A stretch of DNA of 64,000 bases from an uncultured Eubacteriales bacterium (GCA_900314745.1 OMWK01000005.1:12696-76695), one strand, 5' to 3'. Positions 10,857 through 57,909 are shown, counted from the stretch's first letter. The notes: generated from the letters alone by a model not told the origin. Program-made: numbers and translations.

Positions 10857-11840
10857 TCAGGACAGCTCTATCCGCGCACCGTTAAGCTGCGTTAACACCT
10901 GATATCCCCTGCCCGTATAGATCGATATATCCGCGGCAGCAGAATCGGGATATATTGTGATGTAGAACGCATGCTCGCCGTTCTCCTTAATATAAAGGCA
11001 GAGGTAATCTTCTCCCATCACATCACTTAACTTCGGGATCTGCTCCTCCCACACGCCGTTGAGGATCTCGAGCACATCCTCGTCAGTAAGCTCACCTTCA
11101 TCAACTTCAATGCCGGTAACTCTGTACTGCGCACTCTCGAAAAGCTCATCGTGGTCATCGCCGTAAGTAAAGTCACCGAAATACACAGAATCCGGCACGC
11201 TTTGCAGACTCATGTTATCAGGCATATCGTACTGTTCGTTAATATAAGCTTCAAAGTCTTCCTCAAAGGTCTCATCCCAACGCATATAGGTCTTAAAGAG
11301 ATCATCATAAAAATCGTCGTCTTCAGACGTATACACATAGAAATAACCGTCCTCGGGGAGCACGGGAGACGTAACACGGTACTGTCTGTCATCATAATTG
11401 GTCAGAGTAATGGTTATATCGCTTGTAACTTCTTCGCCGTATTTGTCGGAAAGGTACTCGATAATGAGTTCTCTGTCAGCATCGATCAGTTCTTTCTTCT
11501 TCACCTCGTAGTAGATACCGGTAGCAAGTATAGCCGTGACCAAAGAAGCAACAACAGCGATAGTGACTATCTTCAGCACCTTATGTTTCCTGATATAAGC
11601 AATTCCGAATATCAACTGGTAGAGGATACAGATCGGATATATCGGGACGACACACAACCACAGGAAACAATTCGCTATAGCATCGAATCCGTAAATGTAC
11701 GGACCGCCGAACAAACCGGACTGAACACCGTGTATCCCGACTTCGATAAGCGGGACAAATGGAAGATAGCTCAAGAAAAATAGGACAACGCCTATTATTC
11801 CGAATACTTTCTTTGCTTTACCTTTGTTTTGAGATGCCAT
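10857..11840 (-). CDS. Hypothetical membrane protein (about 3 N-terminal TM helices plus a strongly acidic soluble domain)
   Basis: RBS GGGGAGGTG before ATG 11840; own promoter TTGACA-16-TATTAT at 11865-11892; no family recognised. Confidence 0.8.
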   Translation of the reverse strand: MASQNKGKAKKVFGIIGVVLFFLSYLPFVPLIEVGIHGVQSGLFGGPYIYGFDAIANCFLWLCVVPIYPICILYQLIFGIAYIRKHKVLKIVTIAVVASLVTAILATGIYYEVKKKELIDADRELIIEYLSDKYGEEVTSDITITLTNYDDRQYRVTSPVLPEDGYFYVYTSEDDDFYDDLFKTYMRWDETFEEDFEAYINEQYDMPDNMSLQSVPDSVYFGDFTYGDDHDELFESAQYRVTGIEVDEGELTDEDVLEILNGVWEEQIPKLSDVMGEDYLCLYIKENGEHAFYITIYPDSAAADISIYTGRGYQVLTQLNGARIELS

Positions 11841-11936
11841 ATCTATCACCTCCCCGTTAAGGTGATAATACAATATTTATTTTGATTGTCAAAGTATCTT
11901 TAAGAAATTCACACAATTTGCCACAATTCCGAACAC

Positions 11937-37644: not shown

Positions 37645-39318
37645 TCACATAACGACCACTATATGGTCATATTCGCCCTCAGGCACTTCAACAGAAGAAG
37701 GATCATCGGAAATAACAAACCCGATGTTCTTGCTTCTGAAGAAAGTCTCCATCATATCCACCTTACAAAAATCCGGGAAGAAATATCCGTCCCAGATCCT
37801 CTGGTTCCAGATAACAAGATAGCTGTCCTCTGTATACTCCGTGTTCTCCTCAGAAGATGCCGCGAGAGCATTCCATGCATCGTCATACCATAAGTCACTG
37901 GGGATATAATCATCACCGCCCACGAGATAATCGTAATTAAATAGCACATGACCTCCGAGCACCGCGATAACAAGATACAAAGCTACAGCAAGGTAGAAGC
38001 ACTTCATCTTCTCCGAAGTAAACTTGTTAAGCATATAATAGCAGAAGATTCCTCCCACCAGTATCGCAATCGTTCCCATATAGCGGTAGAAGCTTCCGAA
38101 CCCCTCTGCCTCCTCTACACTCATCGAGAAGATGTACATCAGGATCATAAAGAAAACGTATACCCAATAAGTTATGAACACATACTTAAACCAGAACTTA
38201 GGCTCCTTCTTCTTCTCGAAGATAATGAGAAATACAAATCCGAAGAAAACTCCCCACACGAGCATTACCTGAGCGTATTCGCTCATAAAGGATACGGACT
38301 GTACAATCACACCCTTAATGACATATTGTATAAGATCTGGTGACTTATCGTTAAGAAGGTCAAGAAATCTCTCAACTGACGACGCCTGTCTACTTTGGCT
38401 GATATCAGTGTATATGAACGAATTTCTTATCCTGTACAGCAAATTCAGCACCACGGGAATAGCAGCAACGAGGATCGTTCTTAATGCTTTCCCCTTCTTC
38501 AATGCTATGAACAGTGCAAGTGCTGCAGCTAGAAAGAACAATCCGGAGAACTTCACCATAACAAGAAAAGACAGTATCAGAATAAGCGACACGACATCCT
38601 TCTTCTCATCAAACTTCGTCTCAGCGATGAACACGATACATCCAAGCGCCACCATTCCAAGAGTTCCGTCTACAGCCAAAGACAAGGTGCTTACAGCAAC
38701 TGAAGTAAGAAACACGAACGATGCTGCGGCACATATACCAAGAAGAACCTTCTTAAGCTTATCCTTACACTTCGCAAGCACAGCGAAAAGCACACTTACC
38801 GATGCCATATTCAATGCAGCCTGAGCCGTAAAACAATTAGCGATACTAAAACCGAACGACTTAGTCACTATATATATCCAAGTCGCGGTTCCGGGGGGAT
38901 ATGTGCTGAATCCGATTTCAGGTGTAACGGGATAAGAATCATCATAAAAAATAACCTTACACATTCTGTACCAGTGACTGAAATCATCAGGATTTGAAAG
39001 TCCCCTGTCTCTTGTTATGAAGCGTATCCAGGTCACGCCAAGGATCATGAATACAATCACCGGATCAGCAAAAGTTAAAGGTATCTTATTAATCCTATCC
39101 TTCCCTGTAAAAAAAAGTGATACGGGAATCATCAAACATCCTGTAGTAATGAAGATCCAATATCCGACATTAAGCACGCCGGCAACTCCCGCAAGATATA
39201 GAACTAATACCGCCGAAGATATGAACATCAATGGGAAGAAACAAGCTTTCTTTCCAAGCACGGAAGTATAAAGAATGTAAAAGCCGATTACAGCAAAGAT
39301 AAACAAGACCGACTCCAT
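37645..39318 (-). CDS. Polytopic membrane protein, GT-C-like
   Basis: About 13-14 TMs; loop motifs NPDDFSHW and TYPPG typical of GT-C-like proteins; acidic soluble C-terminus. Confidence 0.62.
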   Translation of the reverse strand: MESVLFIFAVIGFYILYTSVLGKKACFFPLMFISSAVLVLYLAGVAGVLNVGYWIFITTGCLMIPVSLFFTGKDRINKIPLTFADPVIVFMILGVTWIRFITRDRGLSNPDDFSHWYRMCKVIFYDDSYPVTPEIGFSTYPPGTATWIYIVTKSFGFSIANCFTAQAALNMASVSVLFAVLAKCKDKLKKVLLGICAAASFVFLTSVAVSTLSLAVDGTLGMVALGCIVFIAETKFDEKKDVVSLILILSFLVMVKFSGLFFLAAALALFIALKKGKALRTILVAAIPVVLNLLYRIRNSFIYTDISQSRQASSVERFLDLLNDKSPDLIQYVIKGVIVQSVSFMSEYAQVMLVWGVFFGFVFLIIFEKKKEPKFWFKYVFITYWVYVFFMILMYIFSMSVEEAEGFGSFYRYMGTIAILVGGIFCYYMLNKFTSEKMKCFYLAVALYLVIAVLGGHVLFNYDYLVGGDDYIPSDLWYDDAWNALAASSEENTEYTEDSYLVIWNQRIWDGYFFPDFCKVDMMETFFRSKNIGFVISDDPSSVEVPEGEYDHIVVVM

Positions 39319-44055: not shown

Positions 44056-45270
44056 TCACTTTGCCTGCTGTCTGCTTATGGCCGAATTACAAACGAATAT
44101 ATTCGCCAATGAAATGCAGAGCATTAACAGCATGACATAAACGATGCCCCACTTCGTAAGCAAGCTTCCTACAGCGGAAAGGAAGAGCGCACCTGCTTTT
44201 TTCGCTGTGTTTAATGCAACCAGGCTTCCCTGCTGTGCTTCGACCTCGTCAACCTTAAGAGAGATATTCTGCACAAGAGTAATAAACGGATCACGTGCAA
44301 ATGCAATCATAAAATAACCTGCGATCATGATCGCTCTCTTCCCTGTGTTTCCTGTAATCCACGGAAGGATCTGCAGGATCAGACCAGCCGTAAGCATTAT
44401 TGACACCAGAACAGCAGCACGGTCCTTGAAAGTTGAATAGGTCCTGCTCATGAGGATATTCGATAAAAATCTGAGCAGATAAACCAAGGAAGATATGAGT
44501 CCGAGAAGCCAGATAATATGCCCAGGTTCATGATCATTAAGCAAAGTCTGGAAGTTAAGCCGCGCATATGTAAGTCCTGTTCCCGTTATCGCCGTAAACA
44601 TGGCAAAAGATATGAGAAGCAGTATACCGAACGAGCTCATAGACGCACGTCTTCTCTTCTTTTCCAGATTTCTGATACAAATCTCATTTGAAGAAGTATC
44701 CCCACGTGTGATAAACACCGCACATACCACACCCGCAGAGCTTAAGCCCATGCAGGCGAACATAGGAAGATAAGCATTAATCTCAAAAAGAGAGCCGCAA
44801 AGCAAAGATGTGATCATCATGACTATTGAAGTTATACCGCTTGCATCAGATTGATATGTGACATACATATCTTCCTTGTACTCGCTCACAAGTTTACGCT
44901 TCAACACAGCTGTTCCTATAGCACTCAGTGTGTGAGCAATACACTTTATAAACCCTCCTATAAGAACAACAATGAACCCGGGAGCGAACGTAATGCAGGC
45001 AGAAGACAGCACGAAGCAGACACTTCCCGTGATTACAGCAGTTTTGTTGCCGACGCGGTTTATCCACTTAAGAAGAGGGTACTGAATAATCAGAGAGAAA
45101 CCGAGCGAAAGGAATGTCAGCCATGATACAGCCGCCACCGACAGGCCTTTCACTTCAGTAAGGAACATCGCATCATAGACAATGAAAAACAAAAGGTCCG
45201 TCTCTAATGCAGTATATCCGAGATACCACCGGAAAAAACTGTTACTGTAACGAGCTCTGATGCTTCCCAT
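44056..45270 (-). CDS. MFS transporter
   Basis: About 12 TMs; degenerate motif A (KWINRVGNK); overlaps the upstream fusion gene by 29 nt. Confidence 0.85.
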   Translation of the reverse strand: MGSIRARYSNSFFRWYLGYTALETDLLFFIVYDAMFLTEVKGLSVAAVSWLTFLSLGFSLIIQYPLLKWINRVGNKTAVITGSVCFVLSSACITFAPGFIVVLIGGFIKCIAHTLSAIGTAVLKRKLVSEYKEDMYVTYQSDASGITSIVMMITSLLCGSLFEINAYLPMFACMGLSSAGVVCAVFITRGDTSSNEICIRNLEKKRRRASMSSFGILLLISFAMFTAITGTGLTYARLNFQTLLNDHEPGHIIWLLGLISSLVYLLRFLSNILMSRTYSTFKDRAAVLVSIMLTAGLILQILPWITGNTGKRAIMIAGYFMIAFARDPFITLVQNISLKVDEVEAQQGSLVALNTAKKAGALFLSAVGSLLTKWGIVYVMLLMLCISLANIFVCNSAISRQQAK

Positions 45271-47542
45271 TTCCGTCCTGCCTTAAGTGTCCGTTCCAGT
45301 ATTCCAAAGATCTCCGTCTGGCTTCTTTCAATTCCTCATCCGTAAACACACCCGGAAGAATAACAGAAGCTATACAGATCCTGGCTGCGTGTATTCCTCT
45401 GATCCTCTCCTTCATGTCAGACAACACTTTATCTTCAATATCCGGATAGTAGGACTTAAGATAAACGTCAAACAAAGCTCCGGCTTTTAACTTATCGACT
45501 CCTAACTTCGCGACGCATTGTTCATCGGTCATGAATGAAGGAAGGAAAACATAATGCGAATACATACAAAGATGATCAAACACCGGGTCCCCCTTACCGC
45601 TTATAACAAGATCGATGAACTTTATCCCGTCATTAAATATCATCGCATTTCCGGGGTGACAGTCACCATGAATAAAATGATCCGAATCAGGTATCGATGC
45701 TATGATATCCGAGATTTTCTGAATCTCCTCCTCATTGCAGTAAGCGTGATCTATTTGCTGTGCACATGATAACGATATGCCCTTAAGATCCTGAATGCTC
45801 TCATCACTCATGCTGATCTTATGCATACTCTTCACCGCTCCTGCGAAAAGCTTAATCAGTTCCTGACAATTTCCTGTACCACACCTTATGGCTTCCTCAA
45901 TTACAGTACCACCAAGCCTGTCGAACATGACACCATACCGGGTATCCGAACGGACCATCTCATACGCCTTAGGAACAGGCAGCCCCTTCCCGTATGCTAT
46001 CCGTGTATGTTCAAGTTCCAGCCTGATACGCTCATACGGAACCGACTGTTTATACAGCTTGATAACCTTGTCACTGCCGATCGCATATACTATGGCCTTT
46101 CTTCCCTGTCCAATAATCTGAAGATCGGGTGATTCCTGTTTTCTGAATTCATCCCAGCTTCCTTCGGGAGGATAGAGACTTCTTTTATCAGTCTTTCCGG
46201 TCTCGAGCAAAGGAAACTCTTCCAAATGAATATAGTTTGTAGGTATCATGTATTCAGGCAGAATATCCAGAAGTTTCTGTCTCATCATGACCTCATCAAC
46301 AATTATGTCACCGGTATAGAAAACAATTATGGATGAGATATCTTTATAAACAAATCCCCTGACTACAAGATTCTTGATGCCGCTTACCTGTCTTACCGCG
46401 TTTCCCACCTCATCAGGCTCAATTCTGTAACCGTTAATCTTGAACATCTCATCGATTCTTCCGCATATAACAAGATCACCGTCAGAAGTCATCATTCCGG
46501 CATCACCTGAATGAATAATTGTCCCGTTTATTTTCTTCCTGGTCAGTTCAGGAAGATTCAGATATCCCCTGACAAAAGGATCGCGGAAACACAACTCTCC
46601 GGTATACCCTGCCGGAACCTCTTTACCGTTCTCATCAAGGATAAGGATTTCAACATCCGACTGTGGCTTACCGACAGGTGCCGGAGTCTGCGGATGTGTC
46701 AGTTCCTTCAGCGTCAGAAGACATCCGGACTCAGTTGATGCATAGCAGTTGATACATCTTGTTCCATCAAGATACAAACCATCCGCAGGTTCACTTGACA
46801 GAACACATGTCTTAAGACTCTTTTTGAGAGGGAGCAGTTTACGGAGCCTGGAAGGTGTAAGATACCCGCAGTTAACATCATTTCTGCAAAGATATTCGGC
46901 AAAACTTTCCGAGTCATCACAATACTCATAAGGAACGATCGCCACAGCGTTTCCGAACACACTTGAGAATCCGACGATAATAGGCATTGATACAAAGCTT
47001 ATCGGACTCATGACAGAATATGTATCCTCAGGAGCGAGAATCGGAACTCCATTCAGGATTGCTGATTTCCATGCATTAATAAGCGTTCCGTATTCATGCA
47101 TGACACCTTTGGGATTTCCGGTAGTTCCCGATGTGTAAGCTATATAGCAAAGGCTGTGAAGATCGGAAGTCTCATATCCGTCTATAGGTTCCGTTCTTTT
47201 TATCTCTTCCCATAAAGACTCATCAACAAACAGTTTACAGTTACAGTCTTTCCTTATGAAATCAGTTCTTTTATCGTTACCTGTCTCTGCTAAAACAAAT
47301 GCAGCCCCTGCCCTGATAGTCCCGATCATGCAGGCATAAAGATCTGTGCCTCTGGGAAGACAGTACATTACGACGTCCTCGGTACCTATCCTTCTCGATT
47401 TAAGCCAGGCATAGATTCTTCCGGTGACAGTCCAGTATTCCTTGAAAGTTAACCTGTTCTCAGATTCATACTTAATAGCTGTCCTGTCCGGCGTATTCAG
47501 CACATGCTCATAAAGAGTATCGAGTATTGTATTATCAACCAT
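45242..47542 (-). CDS. Adenylation (AMP-binding, ANL/NRPS-like) domain fused to an aminoglycoside-phosphotransferase/choline-kinase-like domain
   Basis: A3 YTSGTTGNPKG, A5 YASTE, A7 SGDAG, A8 GRIDEMFKINGYRIE, A10 PLLETGKTDK; then GQGRKAIVY, VIKLY, HGDCHPGN, FIDL; AGGAGG RBS. Confidence 0.88.
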   Translation of the reverse strand: MVDNTILDTLYEHVLNTPDRTAIKYESENRLTFKEYWTVTGRIYAWLKSRRIGTEDVVMYCLPRGTDLYACMIGTIRAGAAFVLAETGNDKRTDFIRKDCNCKLFVDESLWEEIKRTEPIDGYETSDLHSLCYIAYTSGTTGNPKGVMHEYGTLINAWKSAILNGVPILAPEDTYSVMSPISFVSMPIIVGFSSVFGNAVAIVPYEYCDDSESFAEYLCRNDVNCGYLTPSRLRKLLPLKKSLKTCVLSSEPADGLYLDGTRCINCYASTESGCLLTLKELTHPQTPAPVGKPQSDVEILILDENGKEVPAGYTGELCFRDPFVRGYLNLPELTRKKINGTIIHSGDAGMMTSDGDLVICGRIDEMFKINGYRIEPDEVGNAVRQVSGIKNLVVRGFVYKDISSIIVFYTGDIIVDEVMMRQKLLDILPEYMIPTNYIHLEEFPLLETGKTDKRSLYPPEGSWDEFRKQESPDLQIIGQGRKAIVYAIGSDKVIKLYKQSVPYERIRLELEHTRIAYGKGLPVPKAYEMVRSDTRYGVMFDRLGGTVIEEAIRCGTGNCQELIKLFAGAVKSMHKISMSDESIQDLKGISLSCAQQIDHAYCNEEEIQKISDIIASIPDSDHFIHGDCHPGNAMIFNDGIKFIDLVISGKGDPVFDHLCMYSHYVFLPSFMTDEQCVAKLGVDKLKAGALFDVYLKSYYPDIEDKVLSDMKERIRGIHAARICIASVILPGVFTDEELKEARRRSLEYWNGHLRQDGNGKHQSSLQ

Positions 47543-48363: not shown

Positions 48364-50460
48364 TTACTGATCATAAACAACAAAGAGCGCACTTAATGAA
48401 GGAACTCCAGCCTGCATAGGACCGAAGCTTATTCCCTTTATTACGGCGTCTGAACTTAGTGACACGGCAGGAGCCTCTACGGGTTCCAGCTTAAAATCGC
48501 GCCCGCTGTCGTCCAGCTTGAAGTATGCGCCCTTGTGTCCCCTGTTGATAAAAACCACAACCTTGCGTGCACCCTGGGAAGGAAGCACGGTATTGCCGAA
48601 TGCATCCCTGCTCTCATTATCAAGGAACCTCTCGAAAACGATTACGTCTTCGGAAGTGTAAAGCGTCCTGTAAAAACCGGTGCGGAGGACCTGATTCTCT
48701 ACACGAAGCTTAGCAAGCTTTCTGCAGTATTCAAGCTGCTCCACGCCTTCACGGGGAACCTTGCCCCACGGATACGTCCTTCTGTTGAACGGATCCTTAT
48801 ATCCGTCCATGAGAATCTCATCGCCGTAATAAACACAGGGAGCTCCGATGTATCCGATCTGAATTGCGTAACCTAACTTGCAAAGGTCAGCACACCTTGA
48901 AGCCTCGGACTCGGGTACACATATCTTCTGCTGGTCTTCCTTGTTATCGGTATCCCACGGCTTGCTCATCATTGTATAAGCGCGCGGAACATCGTGTGAA
49001 GACAGAAGGTTCATTATGCAGTAGTAGCTCTGCGCGGGATATCTCTCGCGGAAGCCTTCCAGACGTGCGTTGAACACCTTTGCCGATACATATCCCTGAA
49101 GGAACTCGAGCACTGTGGTCCTGAACGTATAACCCATTACAGAATCATGCGTGGAACCGAGCATAAAGTCTCTGTATGAACCATAGGAGCACTTATTGCT
49201 CGCGTCCTCCCATACTTCACCGACGAGCATGCCTTCCCCGCCGGTCTTAGCCTTAATGACATCCCTCATCTGTCTGATGAAAGAATCAGGAAGCTCATCA
49301 GATACATCTAGTCGAAGTCCTGACGCACCTCTTCCAATCCAAGTGTCTACGACACCGCCGTCGCCGAAGATGAACTTTCTGTAGGAAAGATCATTCTCAT
49401 CGACATTGGGAAGATCGGGGAAACCCCACCACGAATCGTAAACGGTGTACCCGTCCTCATTCTTATAGAAGTTGTACCAGGATCTGTACGGACTCTCCAC
49501 GCCCTTCTCGTACGCTTCAAAAGCACCCGTGCCCTCATACCTTCCGAACTTGTTGAAGTAACGGGAATCAGCTCCGGTATGCGAGAACACGCCGTCGAGA
49601 ATGAGTCTTATGCCCTTCTCCCTGCACGCGTTCTGAAGCACAGCGAAAGCCTCGTTGCCGCCAAGCATCGGATCCACATTATGGTAATCGGCAGTATCGT
49701 ATCTGTGAGACGATCTTGCCTCGAATATCGGATTAAGATAGATGATATCTATACCGAGAGACTTAATATAATCGAGATGCTCGGCTATTCCCTTAAGAGA
49801 ACCGCCGAAGAAGTCACAGGCAAGATAACCCGTAGACGGCTTGCCCTTGATATCAACATCCTCGTACCAGTCGTCGTGATATACGCGCTCCTCCCTTGGG
49901 GATGCATTCATCATCCGCTCAACAGTGAACTCCTTATCACGCGCAAATCTGTCCGGGAAGATCTGATAGATCAGAGCGCCCTTCATATGATCAGGAGTCT
50001 TGAAATCCCTTCGGTATGCGGTTATCTGCCATGCATACGGATACTTATCCTCATCGGCGCCGATTCTCGGAGGTTCATGATAAAGCTTGCCCGAACCGTC
50101 CTCGGTGTCGCCCTCAAGGACATAGTACTTGGTGTGGATCTCAGATACCGGCTCATGGTCCTCGTCCTCGGAAGGGACCATCTCAGCGATCCTGAATCTG
50201 AACCAATAGAAAACGAGACCGGGCTCATGCGGGAGCATAAGCCTTGTCTCGTATCTTGTTGTTTCTGTGTCTGTTCCTTCAGACTTTACTTCATGCATCG
50301 GCTCTTCATGATACGAGAAGCCGTAAAGTCCGTAAGAATAACAAAGTGTAACTTCCGAACTGTCAGAAGAAGCGTCGAATCTGATAGTTATCTCAGTATC
50401 AGTCGGCTGCGCACCATAAGGTGACCTGTACAGAGGAAGTCTGGACGCATGAAAGAACAT
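48364..50460 (-). CDS. GH13 neopullulanase/amylopullulanase-type glycogen-degrading enzyme
   Basis: YQIFPDRF, IYLNPIF, HRYDT, ILDGVFSH, catalytic LRLDVSDE / VGEVWED / SSHD. Confidence 0.92.
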   Translation of the reverse strand: MFFHASRLPLYRSPYGAQPTDTEITIRFDASSDSSEVTLCYSYGLYGFSYHEEPMHEVKSEGTDTETTRYETRLMLPHEPGLVFYWFRFRIAEMVPSEDEDHEPVSEIHTKYYVLEGDTEDGSGKLYHEPPRIGADEDKYPYAWQITAYRRDFKTPDHMKGALIYQIFPDRFARDKEFTVERMMNASPREERVYHDDWYEDVDIKGKPSTGYLACDFFGGSLKGIAEHLDYIKSLGIDIIYLNPIFEARSSHRYDTADYHNVDPMLGGNEAFAVLQNACREKGIRLILDGVFSHTGADSRYFNKFGRYEGTGAFEAYEKGVESPYRSWYNFYKNEDGYTVYDSWWGFPDLPNVDENDLSYRKFIFGDGGVVDTWIGRGASGLRLDVSDELPDSFIRQMRDVIKAKTGGEGMLVGEVWEDASNKCSYGSYRDFMLGSTHDSVMGYTFRTTVLEFLQGYVSAKVFNARLEGFRERYPAQSYYCIMNLLSSHDVPRAYTMMSKPWDTDNKEDQQKICVPESEASRCADLCKLGYAIQIGYIGAPCVYYGDEILMDGYKDPFNRRTYPWGKVPREGVEQLEYCRKLAKLRVENQVLRTGFYRTLYTSEDVIVFERFLDNESRDAFGNTVLPSQGARKVVVFINRGHKGAYFKLDDSGRDFKLEPVEAPAVSLSSDAVIKGISFGPMQAGVPSLSALFVVYDQ

Positions 50461-50463
50461 GAC

Positions 50464-52107
50464 TTACTTAGTCTCTTCTTTCTTGCTGTCTGAAGCAGCG
50501 GGCTTCTTTGCTGAAGACTTCTTTGCAGATGACTTCTTGGCAGGTGCTTTCGCAGCGGCCTTCTTAGTCTCAGTCTTCTTTGCTGCAGGCTTCTTATCCT
50601 CGGCCTTCTTCTCCTCAGGCTTCTTCTCTTCCTTAGGAGCTTCCTCCTCAAGAGGAATACCTGTGATGAGAGAATAGAGACCTGCGTACTCCTTGGCACT
50701 CTTCTTCCATGAATAGTCTCCGCTCATGCCGGCCTTAACGAGCTTATCCCAGACATCCTTGTGATTTCTGTAAAGATCGCAGGCGTACTTGGTAACGAAG
50801 AGGAACTCGTGAGCATTGATATTGGCAAATGAGAAACCGTTGCCCTCACCCGTAAACTCGTTATAAGGAGTAACAGTATCCTTAAGTCCGCCTGTCTCAC
50901 GTACAACCGGAACAGTACCGTATGCCATGGATACGAGCTGCGAGAGACCGCAGGGTTCGAACAGTGAAGGCATAAGGAAGATATCGGCACCAGCATAGAT
51001 AGTATGTGCAAGACCTGAGTCAAAATCGATGCATGCGCACATCTTGCCGGGATTTCTGTTAGCCGTATCAACAAGTGCTCTCTCGTAATAGTTATCGCCT
51101 GTTCCGAGGATAACGATCTGCATGCCGTCATAGAGCATCTCATCCAGTACATAGAGGAGAAGATCGAGACCCTTTTGGTCAACGAGTCTGGAAATCATAG
51201 CACACAGAGGTGCACCGGGATTGACCTCGAGACCGAGCTGCTTCTGGAGTGATTCCTTACATGCAGCCTTACCCTTCTGATAGGTCTTGATATCGTACTT
51301 AACCGGGATCTTGTCATCCTTCTTCGGATTGTACTCAAGGTCATTGATACCGTTTAAGATACCGGATACCTTGTAAGCGTACTTCTGAAGAGTATAGTTA
51401 AGTCCCTCACCGTAGTAATCGGTCATGATCTCGTACGCATATGTAGGAGAAACCGTCGTTACGGAATTGGAGAATACGATACCTGCCTTCATGAAGTTGA
51501 TCGCACGGTCCTTGATGCAGAACTCGTCTCTTAAATACTCATCGGGAAGATCGAGCATCTCCCTTACTACATCAGTAGCGTGAACGCCCTGATACTTCAG
51601 GTTGTGGATTGTAAATACGGTCTGCACATTTGTGTGGTAGCCGTGCTTCTTGAAGTGAGCATCGAGAAGCAGAGGCATCATGCCGGTCTGCCAGTCGTTG
51701 CAGTGAAGAACGTTAGGCTCGAAGTTCATGAAGTCACCCATGAAGTCGAGAACAGCTCTTTGATAGAAGCAGTAACGCTCGATATCGAATACATACTCGA
51801 CATAGATCTGATCAAAGTTGAAATAGTATTCGTTATCTACGAAGTAGAAGATCGTTCCGTTCTTCTCGAGCTGGAACAGACCTGCATAGAGTGATCTCCA
51901 GCCCATTCTTACGAGCTTCCAGCCGAGGAACTGCATCTCGTCCTGATACTTGATCTTGATCTTCTTATAAAGAGGAAGGATGACTCTAGCGTCAATATTG
52001 TCCTTGTTAAGTTCTACAGGGAGTGCACCGACAACGTCAGCGAGACCTCCGACCTTAACAAAAGGACTTACCTCAGATGATGCAAATAATACTTTAATCT
52101 TCTCCAT
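50464..52107 (-). CDS. glgA: Glycogen synthase with a 61-aa Lys/Ala/Glu-rich C-terminal tail
   Basis: KVGGLADV, HCNDWQT, TIHNL, ISRLVDQKG, PSLFEPCGL; tail EEEAPKEEKK...KAPAKKSSAKK. Confidence 0.96.
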   Translation of the reverse strand: MEKIKVLFASSEVSPFVKVGGLADVVGALPVELNKDNIDARVILPLYKKIKIKYQDEMQFLGWKLVRMGWRSLYAGLFQLEKNGTIFYFVDNEYYFNFDQIYVEYVFDIERYCFYQRAVLDFMGDFMNFEPNVLHCNDWQTGMMPLLLDAHFKKHGYHTNVQTVFTIHNLKYQGVHATDVVREMLDLPDEYLRDEFCIKDRAINFMKAGIVFSNSVTTVSPTYAYEIMTDYYGEGLNYTLQKYAYKVSGILNGINDLEYNPKKDDKIPVKYDIKTYQKGKAACKESLQKQLGLEVNPGAPLCAMISRLVDQKGLDLLLYVLDEMLYDGMQIVILGTGDNYYERALVDTANRNPGKMCACIDFDSGLAHTIYAGADIFLMPSLFEPCGLSQLVSMAYGTVPVVRETGGLKDTVTPYNEFTGEGNGFSFANINAHEFLFVTKYACDLYRNHKDVWDKLVKAGMSGDYSWKKSAKEYAGLYSLITGIPLEEEAPKEEKKPEEKKAEDKKPAAKKTETKKAAAKAPAKKSSAKKSSAKKPAASDSKKEETK

Positions 52108-52108
52108 A

Positions 52109-53218
52109 TCAGATACCAGCGCCCTTTCCTATAACTACGGGATAATCAGGATGTCCGATAAGTCTTACGCCCGGTCTTACAAATGAATTCTTATCAAGGA
52201 TTACATTCTCAAGATGGCAGTTCTCTGAGATGTGAACGTCCTGCATTACAACGCAGTTCTTAACCGTTGTGTTCTTTGAGATCGTAGCACTTCTGAAGAT
52301 GATCGAGTGATCGATGTCGCCATAGATGCGGCAACCATCGGAGATGATAGAAGTCTTGACCTCGGCATTGTCAAAGTAAAGTGTAGGAGCTTCATCCTTA
52401 ACCTTCGTATAGATAGGCTTGCCGCTCCAGAACAGATCGTTTCTTGTCTCATCCTTAAGAAGTGACATAGAAGCGTTGAAGTATGTCTGAACGCTGTTGA
52501 TACGAAGAGCCGTGCCTGCGTACTCGTAAGCGTAGACCTTAATCTCGTCGAACATCTTAACCATGGAGTGCAGACCGAAGTGTGTCTGTCCGTGGCTCAT
52601 CTGTCTCGAGATGATATCGATGAGCATGTCTCTTCTCAGGCAGATGATTCCGAGTGATGTCTTATTCGAAGTAGCCTTCTGGGGATTGTAGAGCATATCC
52701 TTTACGAAGCCCTTATCATCTGTTTCGAGAATGTAGCACGGATGACCATACTTAAGAGCATCACGGTTATACATTACCGTAAGGTCAGCTCCGCTTGACT
52801 CGTGAGCCTTGATCATATCATCGAAAGTACAGTTAAGGATGATATTGGAATTAGCTACGATGGCGTATGTGGATCTTGAATGTCTTAAGAAGTCGAGAAC
52901 ACCTGCGAGCTCCTCATCACCTGTGATATTGGATGCCTCGGAGTTAACGTACGGAGGCAGGATGTGAAGTCCGTCGTTCTTCCTGTCAAGTGACCAAGGT
53001 GAACCTGTTCCCAGGTGGTCCATCAACGACTTGTACTTGTTATATGTCAGGATACCTACGTTCTTGATACCGGAATTGACCATGTCTGAGAGCATGAAGT
53101 CGATGATCCTGTATCTACCTCCGAACGGAACGGCGGACAGAGCTCTCGGTTCGGAAAGCTCACCCAATCCAATCTTCTTATTGTCGGCCAGTATGAGGCC
53201 CATAACATCATTAAACAT
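52109..53218 (-). CDS. glgD: Glucose-1-phosphate adenylyltransferase subunit GlgD
   Basis: LSAVPFGGRYRIIDF without the GGxGxRL loop; left-handed beta-helix C-terminus; adjacent to glgC. Confidence 0.93.
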   Translation of the reverse strand: MFNDVMGLILADNKKIGLGELSEPRALSAVPFGGRYRIIDFMLSDMVNSGIKNVGILTYNKYKSLMDHLGTGSPWSLDRKNDGLHILPPYVNSEASNITGDEELAGVLDFLRHSRSTYAIVANSNIILNCTFDDMIKAHESSGADLTVMYNRDALKYGHPCYILETDDKGFVKDMLYNPQKATSNKTSLGIICLRRDMLIDIISRQMSHGQTHFGLHSMVKMFDEIKVYAYEYAGTALRINSVQTYFNASMSLLKDETRNDLFWSGKPIYTKVKDEAPTLYFDNAEVKTSIISDGCRIYGDIDHSIIFRSATISKNTTVKNCVVMQDVHISENCHLENVILDKNSFVRPGVRLIGHPDYPVVIGKGAGI

Positions 53219-53242
53219 TTTTATTCCTCCTTCTGACCTTTC

Positions 53243-54499
53243 TTATACTCTGAACTTCTCTTCGATAACGGACTTATCACCCGCATCGATATCCGAATCG
53301 ATCATGGAGTTGCCGGGGATCTCGGCACCGTCCTTGATCTTCAATCCGCGCTCAAATACGCAGATTCCTTCAGAGCACAGCTTGTGGTTCGTATAAGGAC
53401 CTTCGCCCTCGATCTTCGGTCCGGCCTTAACGTCCTTACCGATGATCGTTCCGAAGTCTACGATACATCTTTCGAGTCTCGCGCCTTCCTTAACTACTAC
53501 ACCCGGAAGGAGAACGCAGTCCTTAACGACCGCTCCCTTCTCTACGATTACTGATTCAGACAGAACGGAGTGATTTACTTCACCGAAGATACGGCATCCG
53601 TCTGTAAGAGCTGAGTTGGTAACCTTACCCGACTCACCGATGAACTGTGAAGGCTTAACAGGGTTTCTCGAATAGATTCTCCAGGAACGGTCAACGAGGT
53701 TGATGTCCTCAGGCTTGTCGAGAATATCCATGTTAGTCTCCCACAGGGATGAGATCGTTCCTACATCCTTCCAGTAACCTGCGAATCTGTAAGCAAACAG
53801 CTTCTTACCGCCGTTAAGGAGCATCGGGATGATGTTCTTACCGAAGTCGTTGTTGGACTCGGGATCAGCCTCGTCTCTTACGAGAGCTTCACGCAGAACC
53901 TTCCATGTGAAGCAGTAAACACCCATGGAAGCGAGATTGCTCTTCGGCTTCGCAGGCTTCTCCTCGAACTCAACGATCTGATCCTCACCCTCGGTATTCA
54001 GGATACCGAATCTGGGAGCCTCCTCCCACGGTACTTCGTAAACTGCTACGGTAGCGTCAGCCTCTCTCTCGATGTGGCTTCTAAGCATTGCGCCGTAGTC
54101 CATCTTATAGATATGGTCACCTGAGAGGATTACAACATACTCAGGATCAAAATCATCAAGGAAGTCCTTGTTCTGATAGATAGCATTAGCTGTTCCCTTA
54201 TACCAGTCAGACTTACCTGATCTCTGGTAAGGGGGAAGGATATATGCACCTGCATTGTTACGGTCGAGATCCCAAGGATGTCCGTTACCTACGTATGTGT
54301 TCAATGCAAGCGGCTGATACTGTGACAGGACTCCAACTCGCTCAATACCCGAGTTAACACAGTTGGACAAAGGGAAATCGATGATTCTGTAACGGCTTCC
54401 GAACGGAACCGCAGGCTTGGCTACAGTCTTCGTGAGAACACCGAGTCTTGCTCCCTGGCCTCCTGCAAGTATCATTGCAACTACATCAGTCTTAGCCAT
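53243..54499 (-). CDS. glgC: Glucose-1-phosphate adenylyltransferase
   Basis: [45 protein letters not shown]. Confidence 0.97.
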
Positions 54500-56540
54500 T
54501 TTTTCCTACCTCCGAATTACTTATGTTCTTCTTTTTATTCTCTGTTGTTTTCTTTGCCGGTGCCTTCTTGGCTGCCGGCTTCTTAGCTGCTGCCGGCTTC
54601 TTCGACTCGACCGGTTTCTTCGCCGCGGTCTTCCTGATCTTCGGCTTCTCGGGATCCTTGACCTTCATGAAGTAAACACCTGCGAGCGGCGGTAAGTTAA
54701 ACTTCACGTGATAAGGCTTACCCTGGAAAGGTTCGTCTATCGCCTCGAAAGTGCCCTCCATGCTTACTCCGGTAGGATATCCGCTACCGCCGAAAGCCAT
54801 ATCGTCCGTATTCAGAACGATCTTGTATGTACCGAGCTCATATACGGGGATCTTGTACTCTTCAAGAGGCTGAGGAACCATGTTAAGAGCAACATAGATA
54901 TCGTTCTCATCCTTCTTGGGACTCTTCCTTGTATAAACGAATACGTTATTGACTGTATCATCAGCCGCGATCCACTCGAAGCCTGCCCATGTATGATCAT
55001 CACGCCAAAGCTGTCCGTGCTCGATATAGAACTGGTTGAGCTTGGAGCAGTAATCCTGGAGGAGTCTGTGTGACTCGTAGTCGAGCATGAACCACTCGAG
55101 CTGCTCGTAGAATCTCCACTCGATGAACTGACCGAACTCAGCGCCCATGAAGTTAAGCTTCGCACCGGGGTGGCTCATCTGATACATGAACAGTGTACGG
55201 AGTGAAGCGAACTTCCTCCATACGTCACCCGGCATCTTATTGATGAGTGAATACTTACCGTGTACTACCTCATCGTGCGACAGGCTAAGAACATAGTTCT
55301 CAGCGAAAGCGTACATCATCGAGAAAGTGAACTCATCGTGATGCCAGCCTCTTGCATATGAATCTGTGGAGAAATAATCCAGAGTATCGTGCATCCATCC
55401 CATGTTCCACTTATGTGTGAACCCGAGACCGCCGTCTTCAACAGGATGAGATACCTTAGGCCAAGCCGTTGACTCCTCAGCGATCATCATTACGCCGGGA
55501 TAATTCTTCCTGATAGTTGAATTGAGCTTCTTGAAGAATTCAATGGCTTCAAGATTCTCATTTCCGCCGTACTTGTTAGGGATGTAGTTCTGACGTCCGT
55601 AGTCCCTGTAGAGCATGGAGCTTACGGCATCAACACGAAGTCCGTCGATATGGAATTCGTTGATCCAGAATACGGCATTCGAGATCAGGAAAGAGACAAC
55701 CTCATTCTTGGAATAATCGAATACATATGTACCCCACTCTCTGTGCTCACCGATTCTCGGATCAGCATACTCATAACAGGGAGTACCGTCGAATCTTACA
55801 AGTCCCTCGAGGTTCTTCGGGAAGTGTGCGGGAACCCAGTCAAGAAGAACTGCGATGCCGCTTTGATGGAGCATATCCACCATGAACTTGAAGTCTGCGG
55901 GAGTTCCGAATCTTGAGGTTGCTGCATAGTAACCCGTAACCTGATAGCCCCATGATGCATCGAGCGGATGCTCAAGAACAGGCATAAGCTCGATATGTGT
56001 GTAATGCATCTTCTTGCAGTAATCAACAAGATCAAGAGCTATCTCTCTGTATGTGAAGAAGTTTCCGTCCGGATGCTGTCTCCATGAACCCAGGTGCATC
56101 TCATAGATGTTGATAGGTCTTGCAGCAAGAGCATCAGGCCTGTTCTTCATGTAATCCTTATCACCCCACTCATAATCATCGGGGTTATAAACGATCGATG
56201 CATTGTTAGGTCTGGTCTCAAAATGTCTCGCATAAGGATCGCCCTTATCGTAGATTCTGGAATCAGCTCCGACTACTCTGTACTTATAGCGGTCCCACTG
56301 GGATACACCGGGAATCTTAACTTCCCAAATACCGGTGCCGCCTAATTTATTCATCTGATTGGAAATTGCATTCCAGTCGTTGAAATCTCCTATAACGCTG
56401 ACAGAGAGAGCATTAGGTGCCCAAACTCTGAAAACATATCCTTCATTACCGTCAGACTCTTTATATGGATGAGCTCCCAAAAGATTGTAGCTCATGTAAT
56501 TGTCTCCGCGGTTAAACAAATAAGCCTCGTCCATACGCAT
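54492..56540 (-). CDS. glgB: 1,4-alpha-glucan branching enzyme with a Lys/Ala/Pro-rich C-terminal tail; start may be ATG 56534
   Basis: [55 protein letters not shown]; tail [18 protein letters not shown]. Confidence 0.97.
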
Positions 56541-56670: not shown

Positions 56671-57909
56671 TTACAGTTCTTCGCTCGCGCGCTCGTTGCG
56701 TCTTAAGATCTCGCAGCACATTCTGATGTTGTGATACGGACACTTCCATTCATCTACAAGAGGCTTGGAAAGATCCGGTACACCGTCCTTGGATACTTCC
56801 ATATACCATTCGGCAGGTCGGGTCTTAACGATCATGTGATCTCTTATGAATTCCCATGTCTTCCTCTCGGCCATCTTATAACGCTTGTCGCCCGTCTTCA
56901 TGAAGGCATTTACGAATCCGACGACCGCTTCAGCCTGTATCCACCACGCACGTTCTTCCTTAACGATACCGTTCTCGATCTCATAAGCCATGGAGTTTCC
57001 GTCGAATCCGTACTCCAGAGTCTTCTCTGCAAGAGCTGCTGATATCGGCGCCATTCTCTCGGAAAGATTGTCATCTCCCAGGATGCTGCACGTTCTGTCA
57101 AGAAGCCAGCTCATCTCAATATCATGACCTATCGAACGAAGATCTATGAGACTGTTGAAATCCCTGTCAAAGAATACTTCAAGTCTTCCCTCGTTCGGGT
57201 TATAGACCCTGTTCTCTATCATATCGAGGATCTTGTAGATCTTCCTCTTTACGAACTGATCCTTCGTCTCCTTGTTGATCCTGTAAAGCTCGGTATAAGC
57301 CTCCATGATATGAAGGAGAGTATTCATTGTGCGGTAAGCCTGAACTCCGTTCTCAGACAGATGCGGATTGTTATCCATGATGAAGTCCCTGCCGAACGAC
57401 TCGAGATAGCCTATCTCATCAGTGAACATGTTCTCGACGCAGTTCTTGAGATAATACGCGAACTTGAACGCCTCTATGTCACCCGTTACCTCATAATACT
57501 CGCAAAGCGCATATATCGCGAAAGCGTGATTATATGCATGCTTCGTGGTATCGGAAGGCTTGCCGTCATATGTAACGGACCAGTAGATTCCGCCGTATTC
57601 AGGATCGAAGTAATGATCCCTGAAGAATACATAAGCACGTCTTGCTCCCTCGAGGATATCGAGAGAAGAATAACCGGCATCCTGAAGTTTGACTTCACTC
57701 AACGCACCGTCCATGCAAAGCTTGTAGCAGGTGCTCATGACCCAGAGGATACGGCTGTTCAATACACAGCCCTTGTCAGCCTTGGGTTCAATCGTCCCGT
57801 CAGACTTAACATAGCCGTAGTATCCGCCGTACTCTTTGTCCACCATTCCTAACCAGAACGGCAGAAGATCATGTATGAGATGAATCTTAATTTCAGGAGA
57901 AATAGCCAT
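56671..57909 (-). CDS. AGE-family epimerase, probably cellobiose 2-epimerase
   Basis: KGCVLNSRILW, YNHAFAIYAL, RTMNTLLHIMEA, GHDIE, WWIQAE, WKCPYH. Confidence 0.9.
   Translation of the reverse strand: MAISPEIKIHLIHDLLPFWLGMVDKEYGGYYGYVKSDGTIEPKADKGCVLNSRILWVMSTCYKLCMDGALSEVKLQDAGYSSLDILEGARRAYVFFRDHYFDPEYGGIYWSVTYDGKPSDTTKHAYNHAFAIYALCEYYEVTGDIEAFKFAYYLKNCVENMFTDEIGYLESFGRDFIMDNNPHLSENGVQAYRTMNTLLHIMEAYTELYRINKETKDQFVKRKIYKILDMIENRVYNPNEGRLEVFFDRDFNSLIDLRSIGHDIEMSWLLDRTCSILGDDNLSERMAPISAALAEKTLEYGFDGNSMAYEIENGIVKEERAWWIQAEAVVGFVNAFMKTGDKRYKMAERKTWEFIRDHMIVKTRPAEWYMEVSKDGVPDLSKPLVDEWKCPYHNIRMCCEILRRNERASEEL

What the first reader, a model, noticed from the sequence alone, without database searches (positions are those of the whole stretch)
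50464..54665. Glycogen synthase and branching enzyme both carry histone-H1-like PAKK tails: possible granule-nucleoid tethering or condensate system
Seen: GlgA ends in a 61-aa low-complexity tail (50467-50649, EEEAPKEEKKPEEKKAEDKKPAAKKTETKKAAAKAPAKKSSAKKSSAKKPAASDSKKEETK). GlgB ends in a 57-aa tail (54495-54665, ...[36 protein letters not shown]...). GlgC, GlgD and the GH13 enzyme have no such tail. Established: canonical GlgA and GlgB end after their catalytic folds. AAKP/PAKK repeats bind DNA or polyanions in mycobacterial HupB, Pseudomonas PhaF and Cupriavidus PhaM (which link PHA granules to the nucleoid) and Pseudomonas AlgP (polyphosphate granules). Inference: the two enzymes that stay on the growing glycogen particle have each gained such a tail. 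This suggests glycogen granules are positioned or segregated on the nucleoid or polyP, or that the two enzymes co-condense. I do not know of this being described for glycogen.
Basis: partly seen in the sequence, partly recalled or inferred. Interest (0 to 1): 0.72.

Follow-up and report, generated by a model that had tools for sequence, protein, structure and literature searches.

The report
Lysine-rich disordered tails on glycogen enzymes
In a family of rumen and gut Clostridia, the two enzymes that build glycogen (synthase GlgA and branching enzyme GlgB) carry conserved, disordered, histone-H1-like "PAAKK" tails of a kind otherwise found mostly on DNA- and ribosome-binding proteins, which suggests, without proving, that glycogen synthesis is anchored to nucleic acids in these cells.

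Summary
GlgA (50464-52107, minus strand) ends in a 61-aa tail and GlgB (54492-56540, minus strand) in a roughly 55-aa tail. Both are K/A/P-rich and lie beyond every solved or curated GlgA/GlgB fold. They are the only such segments in the 64-kb window.

In 80 species-level relatives (Saccharofermentans-like MAGs and isolates) the operon glgB-glgC-glgD-glgA-GH13 is syntenic.
- GlgA has a tail in 80/80 loci.
- GlgB has one in 63/74, including all ~50 of the rumen clade; the trait is labile in a sister clade.
- GlgC, GlgD and GH13 never have one.
- About 240 neighbouring protein families lack such tails.

The tails keep composition, reading frame and a pentapeptide K-periodicity, but not sequence. 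They are predicted disordered, transcribed in sheep rumen, and vary by in-frame 15-nt repeats. They match no family above threshold.

A metagenome sample of [12 protein letters not shown] carriers consists mostly of histone-like, ribosomal, topoisomerase and trigger-factor proteins, plus one GH57 alpha-glucan enzyme.

Best reading (about 0.4): a non-specific polyanion (DNA/RNA) address tag that co-localises both enzymes and their glycogen particle. The function is untested. I found no prior description. It is a new variant of a known kind, of moderate to high interest.

The parts
54492..56540 (-). glgB, 1,4-alpha-glucan branching enzyme (682 aa): CBM48 + GH13 catalytic domain + Amy_C, followed by the tail
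   Evidence: Pfam. NCBIfam GlgB equivalog NF008967 scores 868 bits against a cut-off of 577. PDB GlgB chains align to residues 6-630.
54495..54665 (-). GlgB C-terminal tail (aa 626-682): [57 protein letters not shown]. Basic throughout, net charge about +14. The last codons (SEVGKNG) hold the glgC ribosome-binding site and overlap the glgC start by 8 nt.
   Evidence: The tail lies beyond all solved GlgB structures. Equivalent K-rich tails occur in 63/74 related species. Transcript contigs cover it.
53243..54499 (-). glgC, ADP-glucose pyrophosphorylase catalytic subunit. No tail.
   Evidence: NCBIfam NF003670 scores 571 bits against a cut-off of 470. Tail length is 0-2 aa in all related loci.
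52109..53218 (-). glgD, ADP-glucose pyrophosphorylase regulatory subunit. No tail.
   Evidence: TIGR02092 scores 366 bits against a cut-off of 237. Tail length is 0 in all related loci.
50464..52107 (-). glgA, ADP-glucose-type glycogen synthase (547 aa): GT5 + GT1, followed by the tail
   Evidence: Pfam. TIGR02095 scores 535 bits against a cut-off of 328. The equivalog NF001898 scores 600 bits against a cut-off of 603. PDB GlgA chains align to residues 5-481.
50590..50649 (-). GlgA tail, acidic/ampholytic first block (aa 487-506, EEEAPKEEKKPEEKKAEDKK, net -2)
   Evidence: Sequence. The first third of the GlgA tail is net negative in 51/80 species.
50467..50589 (-). GlgA tail, basic block of KKxxx pentapeptide repeats (aa 507-547, PAAKKTETKKAAAKAPAKKSSAKKSSAKKPAASDSKKEETK, net +10). 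The last codons are purine-rich and sit just upstream of the GH13 start codon at 50460.
   Evidence: The rest of the tail is net positive in 80/80 species. K-K spacing peaks at lags 5 and 10. AF2 gives pLDDT about 30 and no secondary structure for residues 489-547.
50503..50628 (.). Period-15-nt (pentapeptide) tandem repeats in the glgA tail DNA. An in-frame 15-nt insertion variant at 50502 is seen in a rumen metatranscriptome.
   Evidence: TRF. Insertion CTTCTTTGCTGAAGA in an X25 contig.
48364..50460 (-). GH13 enzyme (698 aa), last gene of the operon. It is maltodextrin-glucosidase- or cyclomaltodextrinase-like. Its body is acidic (net -30) and it has no tail.
   Evidence: Pfam. NCBIfam hits are all below their cut-offs. 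The gene is syntenic and tail-less in 75 loci.

Best explanation
What it is (shown): GlgA and GlgB of this Saccharofermentans-like lineage each carry a lineage-specific, intrinsically disordered C-terminal extension. It is built of (P/A/T)AAKK-type pentapeptide repeats. Lysine makes up 30-36%, arginine under 1%, and there are no aromatic residues. Composition, reading frame and positive charge are maintained by selection, while sequence and length drift through in-frame repeat gain and loss.

How it most likely works (inferred): the tails act as non-specific electrostatic address tags for cellular nucleic-acid polyanions. The target would be nucleoid DNA and/or ribosomal and messenger RNA. GlgA and GlgB are the two enzymes that work on the surface of the growing glucan. 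Tagging both would keep them together and would hold the nascent glycogen particle in the nucleic-acid-rich cytoplasm. The effect would be to disperse and partition glycogen, instead of letting it coalesce into nucleoid-excluded polar bodies as in E. coli. In this picture GlgA and GlgB play both roles that PhaM/PhaF play for PHB and AlgP plays for polyP: a granule-binding module plus an H1-like tail.
For: - Tails are real and lie outside all known folds.
- They are unique in the window.
- They are confined to GlgA and GlgB. A K-rich-window scan of 3256 ORFs in 1.45 Mb from 80 species gave 77 GlgA hits, 62 GlgB hits and 9 others. None of the 9 is a PAAKK tail on an enzyme. The loci sample about 240 protein families.
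- GlgA has a tail in 80/80 loci. GlgB has one in 63/74, including every member of the roughly 50-species rumen clade. GlgC, GlgD and GH13 never have one.
- All 240 listed GlgA hits from two searches are at least 500 aa long; the shortest, P0108, is N-terminally truncated and keeps an 89-aa tail.
- The reading frame is kept despite many indels. A +1 shift of AAG-rich DNA would give an R-rich tail, yet R is 0.3-0.6% against K at 30-36%.
- Both tails share a pentapeptide K-periodicity and the same top motifs, KKPAA / PAAKK / APAKK.
- A, P, S and T content co-varies between the two tails within genomes.
- The tail is predicted disordered.
- The operon, including both tail regions, is transcribed in sheep rumen.
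- Guilt by association: of 92 metagenomic proteins carrying [12 protein letters not shown], the attached domains are mostly HC2/H1-like (33), ribosomal proteins L21, L4, S2, S20 and S1 (17), topoisomerase I (4), trigger factor (4), SWIB (3), and Ku, RNAP and RsfS.
- PAKKA repeats bind DNA in mycobacterial Hlp and Ku (PMC3553676).
- H1-like tails tether PHB and polyP granules to the nucleoid (PMC13052382).
- A basic C-terminal tail localises the polymer synthase Ppk1 in Caulobacter (PMC3806658).
- Tail-less E. coli makes nucleoid-excluded polar glycogen condensates (PMC11042326).
Against: - There is no binding or localisation data for these proteins.
- The GlgA tail is only moderately basic (net +8 over 61 aa) and starts with an acidic block.
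- Both full-length proteins remain net negative, at -3 and -12. Polyanion binding could therefore be weak at physiological salt.
- The GlgB tail is missing in 11/74 species that keep a GlgA tail, so a tail on both enzymes is not obligatory.
- HC2 and H1-like HMM scores are below threshold.
- Only about 240 gene families near the operon, plus the window, were sampled. The whole proteome was not.
- Tail-composition correlations are not corrected for phylogeny.
Confidence: 0.4

Rival explanations
1. Direct enzyme-enzyme assembly or co-condensation. The basic tails bind the strongly acidic catalytic bodies of the partner enzyme, and the acidic block of the GlgA tail pairs with the purely basic GlgB tail. 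This would give a fuzzy GlgA-GlgB complex or coacervate that couples chain elongation to branching, with no nucleic acid involved.
For: - Catalytic bodies are acidic in all species. GlgA averages -14 and GlgB -28, while the tails are +10 and +15.
- The GlgA tail is a conserved diblock, with an acidic first third in 51/80 species and a basic remainder in 80/80.
- The GlgB tail appears only in lineages that already have a K-rich GlgA tail.
- Tail compositions co-vary within genomes.
- There is precedent for GlgA condensation in cyanobacteria (PMC13125920).
- Plant starch synthases have a disordered N-terminal extension (PMC6156364).
Against: - GH13 (net -23) and GlgC (net -12) are equally acidic, so the tails would not discriminate between partners.
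- GlgB body charge is the same with or without a tail within clade II.
- There are no aromatic or arginine 'sticker' residues.
- Elsewhere the same repeat is overwhelmingly attached to nucleic-acid binders.
Confidence: 0.2
2. Colloidal stabiliser or entropic bristle. The enzymes remain on the glycogen particle surface. Their charged, disordered tails form a brush that keeps particles soluble and apart by steric and electrostatic repulsion and keeps the surface accessible. No specific binding partner is needed.
For: - The tails are disordered. They are highly charged with no hydrophobic residues.
- Length and sequence are free to vary while composition is kept.
- Only the polymer-surface enzymes carry them.
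- Glycogen otherwise coalesces into large condensates (PMC11042326).
Against: - A bristle would not need the strict lysine-only, period-5 PAAKK pattern shared with DNA-binding tails.
- Net-negative bristles would be less risky in a nucleic-acid-rich cytoplasm.
- The number of enzyme molecules per particle may be too low to form a brush.
Confidence: 0.15
3. Polyphosphate-specific binding. The tails couple glycogen enzymes to polyP granules or chains, either by ionic binding or by PASK-like lysine polyphosphorylation of the acidic/Ser/Lys-rich GlgA tail. This would link carbon and phosphate stores.
For: - AlgP (H1-like) associates with polyP granules (PMC9239181).
- The basic tail of Ppk1 targets polyP (PMC3806658).
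- The GlgA tail mixes E/D, S and K.
Against: - No ppk gene or polyP evidence is available for this organism within the window.
- The carriers of the same repeat in metagenomes are DNA- or ribosome-associated proteins rather than polyP enzymes.
Confidence: 0.1
4. Non-adaptive low-complexity expansion, or a by-product of mRNA or charge constraints. Options are replication-slippage repeats tolerated at C-termini, purine-rich spacers serving translation of the downstream gene, or simple pI compensation of acidic enzymes.
For: - The DNA has period-15 repeats and shows an in-frame repeat-number polymorphism.
- The last codons of both tails overlap the ribosome-binding region of the next gene.
- GlgB body charge correlates weakly with tail charge across species (rho -0.41).
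Against: - The tail has been retained in 80/80 species and at least 156 protein clusters down to 68% catalytic identity.
- The K-frame is strictly kept.
- Tails are restricted to two functionally linked enzymes out of about 240 families.
- Equally acidic GH13 and GlgC never acquire a tail, and within clade II the GlgB body charge is independent of the tail.
- Only the last 10 or so codons can be explained by ribosome-binding-site constraints.
Confidence: 0.07

Closest known systems
PhaM (Cupriavidus necator) and PhaF (Pseudomonas putida): PHB granule-nucleoid tethers; AlgP (P. aeruginosa): polyP granule spacing
   Same: Each has a storage-polymer-binding module fused to a C-terminal K/A/P-rich, histone-H1-like low-complexity region. 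That region binds DNA non-specifically. Its loss gives fewer, larger, mis-positioned granules (PMC13052382; PMC9239181). AlgP and Hc2 show repeat-number variation, as seen here.
   Different: Here the tail sits directly on the biosynthetic enzymes (GT5 synthase and GH13 branching enzyme), not on a dedicated adaptor or phasin. The polymer is glycogen, for which no positioning factor is described. The GlgA tail has an acidic block. There is no sequence homology. DNA binding is untested.
Caulobacter crescentus Ppk1 basic C-terminal localisation tail
   Same: A storage-polymer synthase carries a short, highly basic C-terminal tail that is absent from the E. coli orthologue. The tail is needed to localise the enzyme to granules positioned along the chromosome (PMC3806658).
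   Different: The Ppk1 tail is 22 aa, and its own product (polyP) is the polyanion it binds. Glycogen is neutral, so the tails here must address something other than the product.
PAKKA-repeat tails of actinobacterial and Deinococcus DNA-binding proteins (Hlp/HupB, HupS, M. smegmatis Ku, topoisomerase I) and chlamydial Hc2
   Same: They share the pentapeptide lysine/alanine/proline repeat, disorder, rapid length evolution and a terminal position (PMC3553676; PMC2848022). The metagenome sample of [12 protein letters not shown] carriers is dominated by such proteins.
   Different: Those host proteins already bind DNA or RNA through a folded domain. GlgA and GlgB have no nucleic-acid function. The tails here score below the HC2 and H1-like model thresholds.
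Canonical bacterial GlgA and GlgB (E. coli, Agrobacterium, Cyanothece, Mycobacterium structures)
   Same: The catalytic architecture is fully conserved and the operon includes glgC and glgD, as in Firmicutes.
   Different: Canonical enzymes end within about 5 residues of the last fold element. These extend 55-60 aa further, and up to 172 aa in relatives.
Plant starch synthases with disordered N-terminal extensions (e.g. SS2; cited from PMC6156364 title and abstract only)
   Same: A disordered extension is appended to a starch/glycogen synthase.
   Different: Those extensions are N-terminal. The abstract concerns post-translational regulation of SS2. Their composition and any role in binding branching enzymes were not read here, and any analogy to complex formation rests on my own background knowledge.

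Membership tests
GlgA, ADP-glucose-type glycogen synthase (GT5) | GT5 N-terminal catalytic domain plus GT1 C-terminal Rossmann domain, with a full-length match to GlgA models | tested here: met
   PF08323 E=2.4e-73 and PF00534. TIGR02095 scores 535 bits against a cut-off of 328. The equivalog NF001898 scores 600.2 against 603, marginally below. PDB GlgA chains align over residues 5-481.
GlgA, ADP-glucose-type glycogen synthase (GT5) | N-terminal K-x-G-G-L ADP-glucose-binding motif, and genomic context with glgC | tested here: met
   KVGGLADV at residues 18-25, invariant in alignment A1. The operon glgB-glgC-glgD-glgA is syntenic in 80 loci.
GlgB, GH13 branching enzyme | CBM48 + GH13 catalytic domain + Amy_C, with an equivalog-level model match | tested here: met
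   Pfam. NF008967 scores 868 bits against a cut-off of 577. PDB GlgB E=1e-196.
Histone H1-like / Hc2 nucleoproteins (PF07382; NF038053 hist_H1_lk_Burk) | Score above the curated threshold of the family model | tested here: not met
   HC2 scores 16.5 bits (GlgA tail) and 19.1 bits (GlgB tail) against a cut-off of 40. NF038053 scores 20 bits against 80. Tail-only phmmer searches gave 0 hits. A few orthologues (P0012, P0029) are flagged PF07382 in the precomputed table.
Histone H1-like / PAKKA-type low-complexity tails (a compositional class, not a homologous family) | K/A/P-rich, lysine rather than arginine, pentapeptide periodicity, terminal position, predicted disorder | tested here: met
   K is 30-36%, A 21-23%, P 8-12% and R under 1%. 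K-K observed/expected is 1.9 and 1.6 at lag 5. Top 5-mers are KPAAK, KKPAA and PAAKK. pLDDT is about 30.
Histone H1-like / PAKKA-type low-complexity tails | Non-specific binding of DNA or another polyanion | not testable with these tools
   Indirect evidence only. The same repeat elsewhere is attached mainly to DNA- or ribosome-binding proteins.
Granule-nucleoid tethers (PhaM / PhaF / AlgP type) | One polypeptide with a granule-binding part and a C-terminal H1-like DNA-binding part | tested here: inconclusive
   The architecture is analogous. The glucan-binding catalytic domains (CBM48 in GlgB) carry a PAAKK tail. There is no phasin or PhaM homology, and glucan and DNA binding have not been shown.
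Granule-nucleoid tethers (PhaM / PhaF / AlgP type) | Loss of the tail or protein gives fewer, larger, mis-segregated granules | not testable with these tools
   This needs genetics and microscopy in an isolate or a heterologous host.

The most novel reading that the evidence does not exclude
Glycogen particles in Saccharofermentans-like bacteria are physically coupled to the nucleoid, or to the nucleoid-polysome interface, by H1-like tails carried on the synthase and the branching enzyme themselves. This would be the first positioning and partitioning mechanism described for glycogen. Its adaptor would be built into the biosynthetic enzymes, and it would have been acquired stepwise: GlgA first, then GlgB, possibly more than once.
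Probability: 0.22. Interest if true: 0.8.

Novelty: new variant of a known kind. Interest (0 to 1): 0.6.

Why it matters
Positioning systems are known for carboxysomes, magnetosomes, PHB granules and polyP granules. A 2025 review of bacterial organelle positioning does not mention glycogen at all. A 2024 review of prokaryotic alpha-glucan enzymes mentions no lysine-rich or disordered tails.

In E. coli, glycogen phase-separates into nucleoid-excluded polar condensates that skew cell division. A whole family of abundant rumen and gut fermenters has instead fitted both glycogen-building enzymes with nucleic-acid-type polycationic tails.

If the tails tether or co-localise the enzymes, this gives a simple, testable, transplantable handle on how bacteria control the size, number, dispersion and inheritance of glycogen particles. 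Glycogen turnover is central to feast-famine physiology in the rumen. It would also be a clean natural example of a low-complexity 'address tag' migrating from nucleic-acid-binding proteins onto metabolic enzymes.

If the tails turn out to be inert, the finding is a curiosity of low-complexity evolution.

Tried and rejected
- **Tail-only homology searches.** The word-indexed search of the GlgB tail and the exhaustive HMMER search of the GlgA tail against 1.84 billion representatives both returned nothing. The tails cannot be traced as a domain, and the first of these cost one capped search.
- **AlphaFold2 of GlgA.** A 28-sequence alignment gave a poor overall model (pLDDT 57). It is useful only for showing that the tail is unstructured, so I ran no fold search.
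- **Gene conversion or duplication between the two tails.** Sharing of peptide 4- and 5-mers within a genome is no higher than between genomes. There is only a small excess of shared 12-mers at the nucleotide level, compatible with codon usage. Rejected as the main origin. The 'joints' between the two tail regions in metatranscriptome contigs are assembly artefacts of the shared repeat.
- **Charge compensation of acidic enzymes.** Rejected. GH13 (net -23) and GlgC (net -12) never have tails, and within clade II the GlgB body charge is the same with and without a tail.
- **Compensation of a missing GlgB tail by a longer GlgA tail.** Not seen.
- **Finding where tailed GlgA ends phylogenetically.** A second search seeded from the most distant locus (L077) still returned only tailed proteins of at least 512 aa. 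The boundary with tail-less GlgA was not reached.
- **Whole-proteome count of tails in this genome.** Not possible with the tools. The substitutes were the window, about 240 neighbouring families and a metagenome motif sample.

Full report
**1. The observation**

The minus strand of the window carries a compact operon:
- glgB, 54492-56540
- glgC, 53243-54499
- glgD, 52109-53218
- glgA, 50464-52107
- a GH13 enzyme, 48364-50460

GlgA is 547 aa. Its GT5 and GT1 domains, the curated GlgA models and all solved GlgA or starch-synthase structures stop aligning at residues 478-484.

GlgB is 682 aa. Its Amy_C domain ends at residue 624, and solved branching enzymes end at query residues 621-639. Residues 626-682 form the second tail, net charge about +14.

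Both tails are therefore real, at the stated coordinates, and additional to the canonical folds.

**2. Not chance, and not a habit of the local genome**

- A six-frame scan of the 64-kb window for K-rich low-complexity 30-mers returns only these two segments.
- The DNA motif for KKPAAKK occurs twice, once per tail. It occurred in 0 of 100 shuffles.
- The window also encodes UvrA, a Clp ATPase, LysR- and AraC-type regulators, aconitase, citrate synthase, oxoacid:ferredoxin oxidoreductase subunits and others. None has such a tail.
- As a rough inference, if two of about 55 genes were tagged at random, the chance that they are exactly the synthase and the branching enzyme is below 0.1%.

**3. Conservation**

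A scan of one genome per GTDB species returned 80 loci. They come from rumen, horse-gut and digester MAGs and from three cultured 'Ruminococcaceae bacterium' isolates. Names include Saccharofermentans and Mageeibacillus-like. L017, from a water-deer omasum, has an identical GlgA. NCBI places Saccharofermentans in Oscillospiraceae, Clostridia.

The five-gene operon is syntenic throughout. The tail results are as follows:
- GlgA has a 50-172-aa tail in 80/80 loci.
- GlgB has a K-rich tail of at least 25 aa in 63 of the 74 loci holding both genes.
- GlgC, GlgD and GH13 have 0-2 extra residues almost everywhere, with a few short non-K-rich GH13 extensions (5-20 aa).

Two protein searches, one seeded from the window and one from the most distant locus, listed 156 distinct GlgA clusters. 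They range from 68% to 100% catalytic identity. All are at least 500 aa long and all have tails.

A neighbour-joining tree of the concatenated catalytic domains shows three clades:
- Clade I (digester-type): moderately basic GlgA tails (K 17-26%) and no K-rich GlgB tail, apart from one short, moderately basic one (L071, 29 aa, K 21%).
- Clade II: K-rich GlgA tails and GlgB tails in a patchy pattern that needs at least three state changes.
- Clade III (the large rumen clade holding the window): every species has both tails.

The GlgA tail is therefore ancestral. The GlgB tail came later, only against a K-rich GlgA-tail background, and is fixed in the window's clade.

**4. Specificity across neighbours**

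The 1.45 Mb of loci contains 3256 ORFs of at least 80 aa. That reduces to about 1100 non-overlapping ORFs in about 240 families. The K-rich scan hits GlgA 77 times, GlgB 62 times and only 9 other ORFs. The 9 others are lipoprotein linkers, N-termini of a membrane protein, and small ArsR-type HTH regulators with a KKKK tail. None is a PAAKK tail on an enzyme.

**5. Nature of the tails**

- Sequence is not conserved, but composition is. For GlgA, K is 30%, A 21%, E 14% and P 12%. For GlgB, K is 36%, A 23%, T 11% and P 8%. R is below 1% and aromatic residues are essentially absent.
- Lysines recur with period 5. Observed/expected is 1.9 and 1.6 at lag 5 and is depleted at lags 2-3. Both tails share the same top pentamers: KPAAK, KKPAA, PAAKK and APAKK.
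- The glgA tail DNA has period-15 tandem repeats. A rumen metatranscriptome contig carries an in-frame 15-nt insertion there. Length therefore evolves by repeat slippage.
- The lysine frame is always kept. A frameshift would give R/S-rich sequence, which is never seen.
- The GlgA tail is a diblock. Its first third is acidic in 51/80 species and the remainder is basic in 80/80. The GlgB tail is basic throughout.
- AF2 gives pLDDT of about 30 and no secondary structure for residues 489-547. The model as a whole is poor.
- Sheep-rumen metatranscriptome assemblies cover the operon, including both tail regions.
- The last codons of each tail overlap the ribosome-binding region or start of the next gene. 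This probably explains the conserved non-repeat ends (…SEVGKNG; …KKEETK).

**6. Family membership**

The catalytic parts are ordinary GlgA and GlgB. The tails are not members of any curated family:
- HC2 (PF07382) scores 16.5 and 19.1 bits against a cut-off of 40.
- The Burkholderia H1-like model scores 20 bits against a cut-off of 80.
- Tail-only searches of 5.8 billion and 1.84 billion proteins find nothing.

'Histone-H1-like' is thus a statement about a compositional and periodicity class, not about homology.

**7. What the same repeat is attached to elsewhere**

I scanned metagenome contigs for DNA encoding [12 protein letters not shown]. None of the carrier ORFs is GlgA or GlgB.

Pfam results for the 92 carriers of at least 130 aa:
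- HC2-like 30, linker histone 3
- ribosomal L21 8, L4 3, S2 2, S20 2, S1 2
- topoisomerase I 4, trigger factor 4, SWIB 3
- Ku, RNA polymerase beta, RsfS and EVE, 1 each
- three metabolic enzymes: IGPS, NuoC and a GH57 enzyme

The GH57 protein (L113) sits next to a GT4 glycogen-synthase-like gene in a probably Bacteroidota contig. It ends in …[25 protein letters not shown].

By association, then, the repeat is a nucleic-acid or ribosome-affinity module. There is also one anecdotal second case on an alpha-glucan enzyme.

**8. Mechanism**

Shown: the tails are selected, disordered PAAKK-type polycationic extensions confined to the two enzymes that act on the growing glucan surface.

Inferred, with confidence of about 0.4: they are non-specific address tags for nucleic-acid polyanions (nucleoid DNA and/or RNA and ribosomes). 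They would co-localise GlgA and GlgB and hold the nascent particle in that compartment.

This would work like PhaM and PhaF for PHB, like AlgP for polyP, and like the basic C-terminal tail that localises Caulobacter Ppk1. It contrasts with tail-less E. coli, where glycogen forms nucleoid-excluded polar condensates.

Rivals:
- direct electrostatic GlgA-GlgB assembly or condensation (0.2)
- a colloidal bristle on the particle surface (0.15)
- polyP-specific binding (0.1)
- a neutral or by-product low-complexity region (0.07)

Simple charge compensation is rejected. Equally acidic GH13 and GlgC never gain tails, and GlgB body charge is independent of the tail within clade II.

**9. Novelty and limits**

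Full-text searches found no description of such tails on glycogen enzymes. A 2024 review of alpha-glucan enzymes does not mention them. A 2025 review of organelle positioning does not mention glycogen.

I file the finding as a new variant of a known kind: known enzymes combined with a known class of tail, in a new combination and on a new polymer.

Limits:
- There is no experimental evidence.
- The whole proteome was not scanned.
- The phylogenetic boundary with tail-less GlgA was not reached.
- The tree and the correlations are simple and not corrected for phylogeny.

Noticed in passing
L113:964-2340 (+), with L113:50-928 (+): A GH57 family protein (459 aa) ends in a coiled-coil-like stretch followed by …[27 protein letters not shown]. 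It lies next to a GT4 glycogen-synthase-like gene fragment in a contig of 56% GC with pectin and GH3 genes, probably Bacteroidota. This may be a convergent PAAKK tail on another alpha-glucan enzyme.
   Followed up: partly
L060:736-1086, L061:1805-2158, L064:1822-2175, L072:1857-2213: Small ArsR-type HTH regulators (about 117 aa) upstream of the glg operon in clade II carry a C-terminal (K/E/D)-rich KKKKKK tail. This is a different style of basic tail, and here it sits on a DNA-binding protein.
   Followed up: partly
GlgA tails of clade II (e.g. L062:7992-9728; P0080-P0119): A conserved short motif, E-K-K-x-L-T-E-E-I-L-D, lies at the start of the otherwise unconserved GlgA tail. It is absent from the window's clade and may be a short linear interaction motif.
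   Followed up: no
GlgA C-termini of clade I (P0129-P0156; L070, L073): The extreme C-terminus …KKEKDDKKAK is conserved although the rest of the tail drifts. The downstream GH13 gene overlaps or abuts it, so the conservation may reflect the ribosome-binding site rather than the protein.
   Followed up: partly
window 50502 and 50485-50644; 54550-54602: Rumen metatranscriptome contigs show an in-frame 15-nt insertion in the glgA tail. They also show chimeric 'joints' between the glgA and glgB tail regions. The joints are best explained as assembly artefacts of the shared AAGAAGCCNGC repeat.
   Followed up: partly
window 45242-47542 (-) and 44056-45270 (-): A 766-aa fusion of an AMP-binding (adenylate-forming) domain with an APH-type phosphotransferase or kinase domain overlaps an MFS transporter gene. 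This is an unusual domain combination.
   Followed up: no
window 37645-39318 (-) and 10857-11873 (-): ORFs of 557 aa and 338 aa have no Pfam match at E<=1e-3.
   Followed up: no
window 56671-57909 (-): A cellobiose-2-epimerase-like (GlcNAc 2-epimerase fold) gene lies directly upstream of glgB. It scores below the equivalog cut-off (244 bits against 800).
   Followed up: no
window 54492-54499: The glgB stop and the glgC start overlap by 8 nt, with a GGAGG-like site inside the last glgB codons. glgA and GH13 are 3 nt apart. This indicates tight translational coupling across the operon.
   Followed up: partly
L017 versus window: The GTDB representative RGIG8863 (water-deer omasum MAG) has a 100% identical GlgA and GlgC but only 94% GlgB and 92% GH13 identity. 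GlgB-tail length also differs (59 aa in L017, 55 aa in the window, same cut point). Divergence within the operon is uneven.
   Followed up: no
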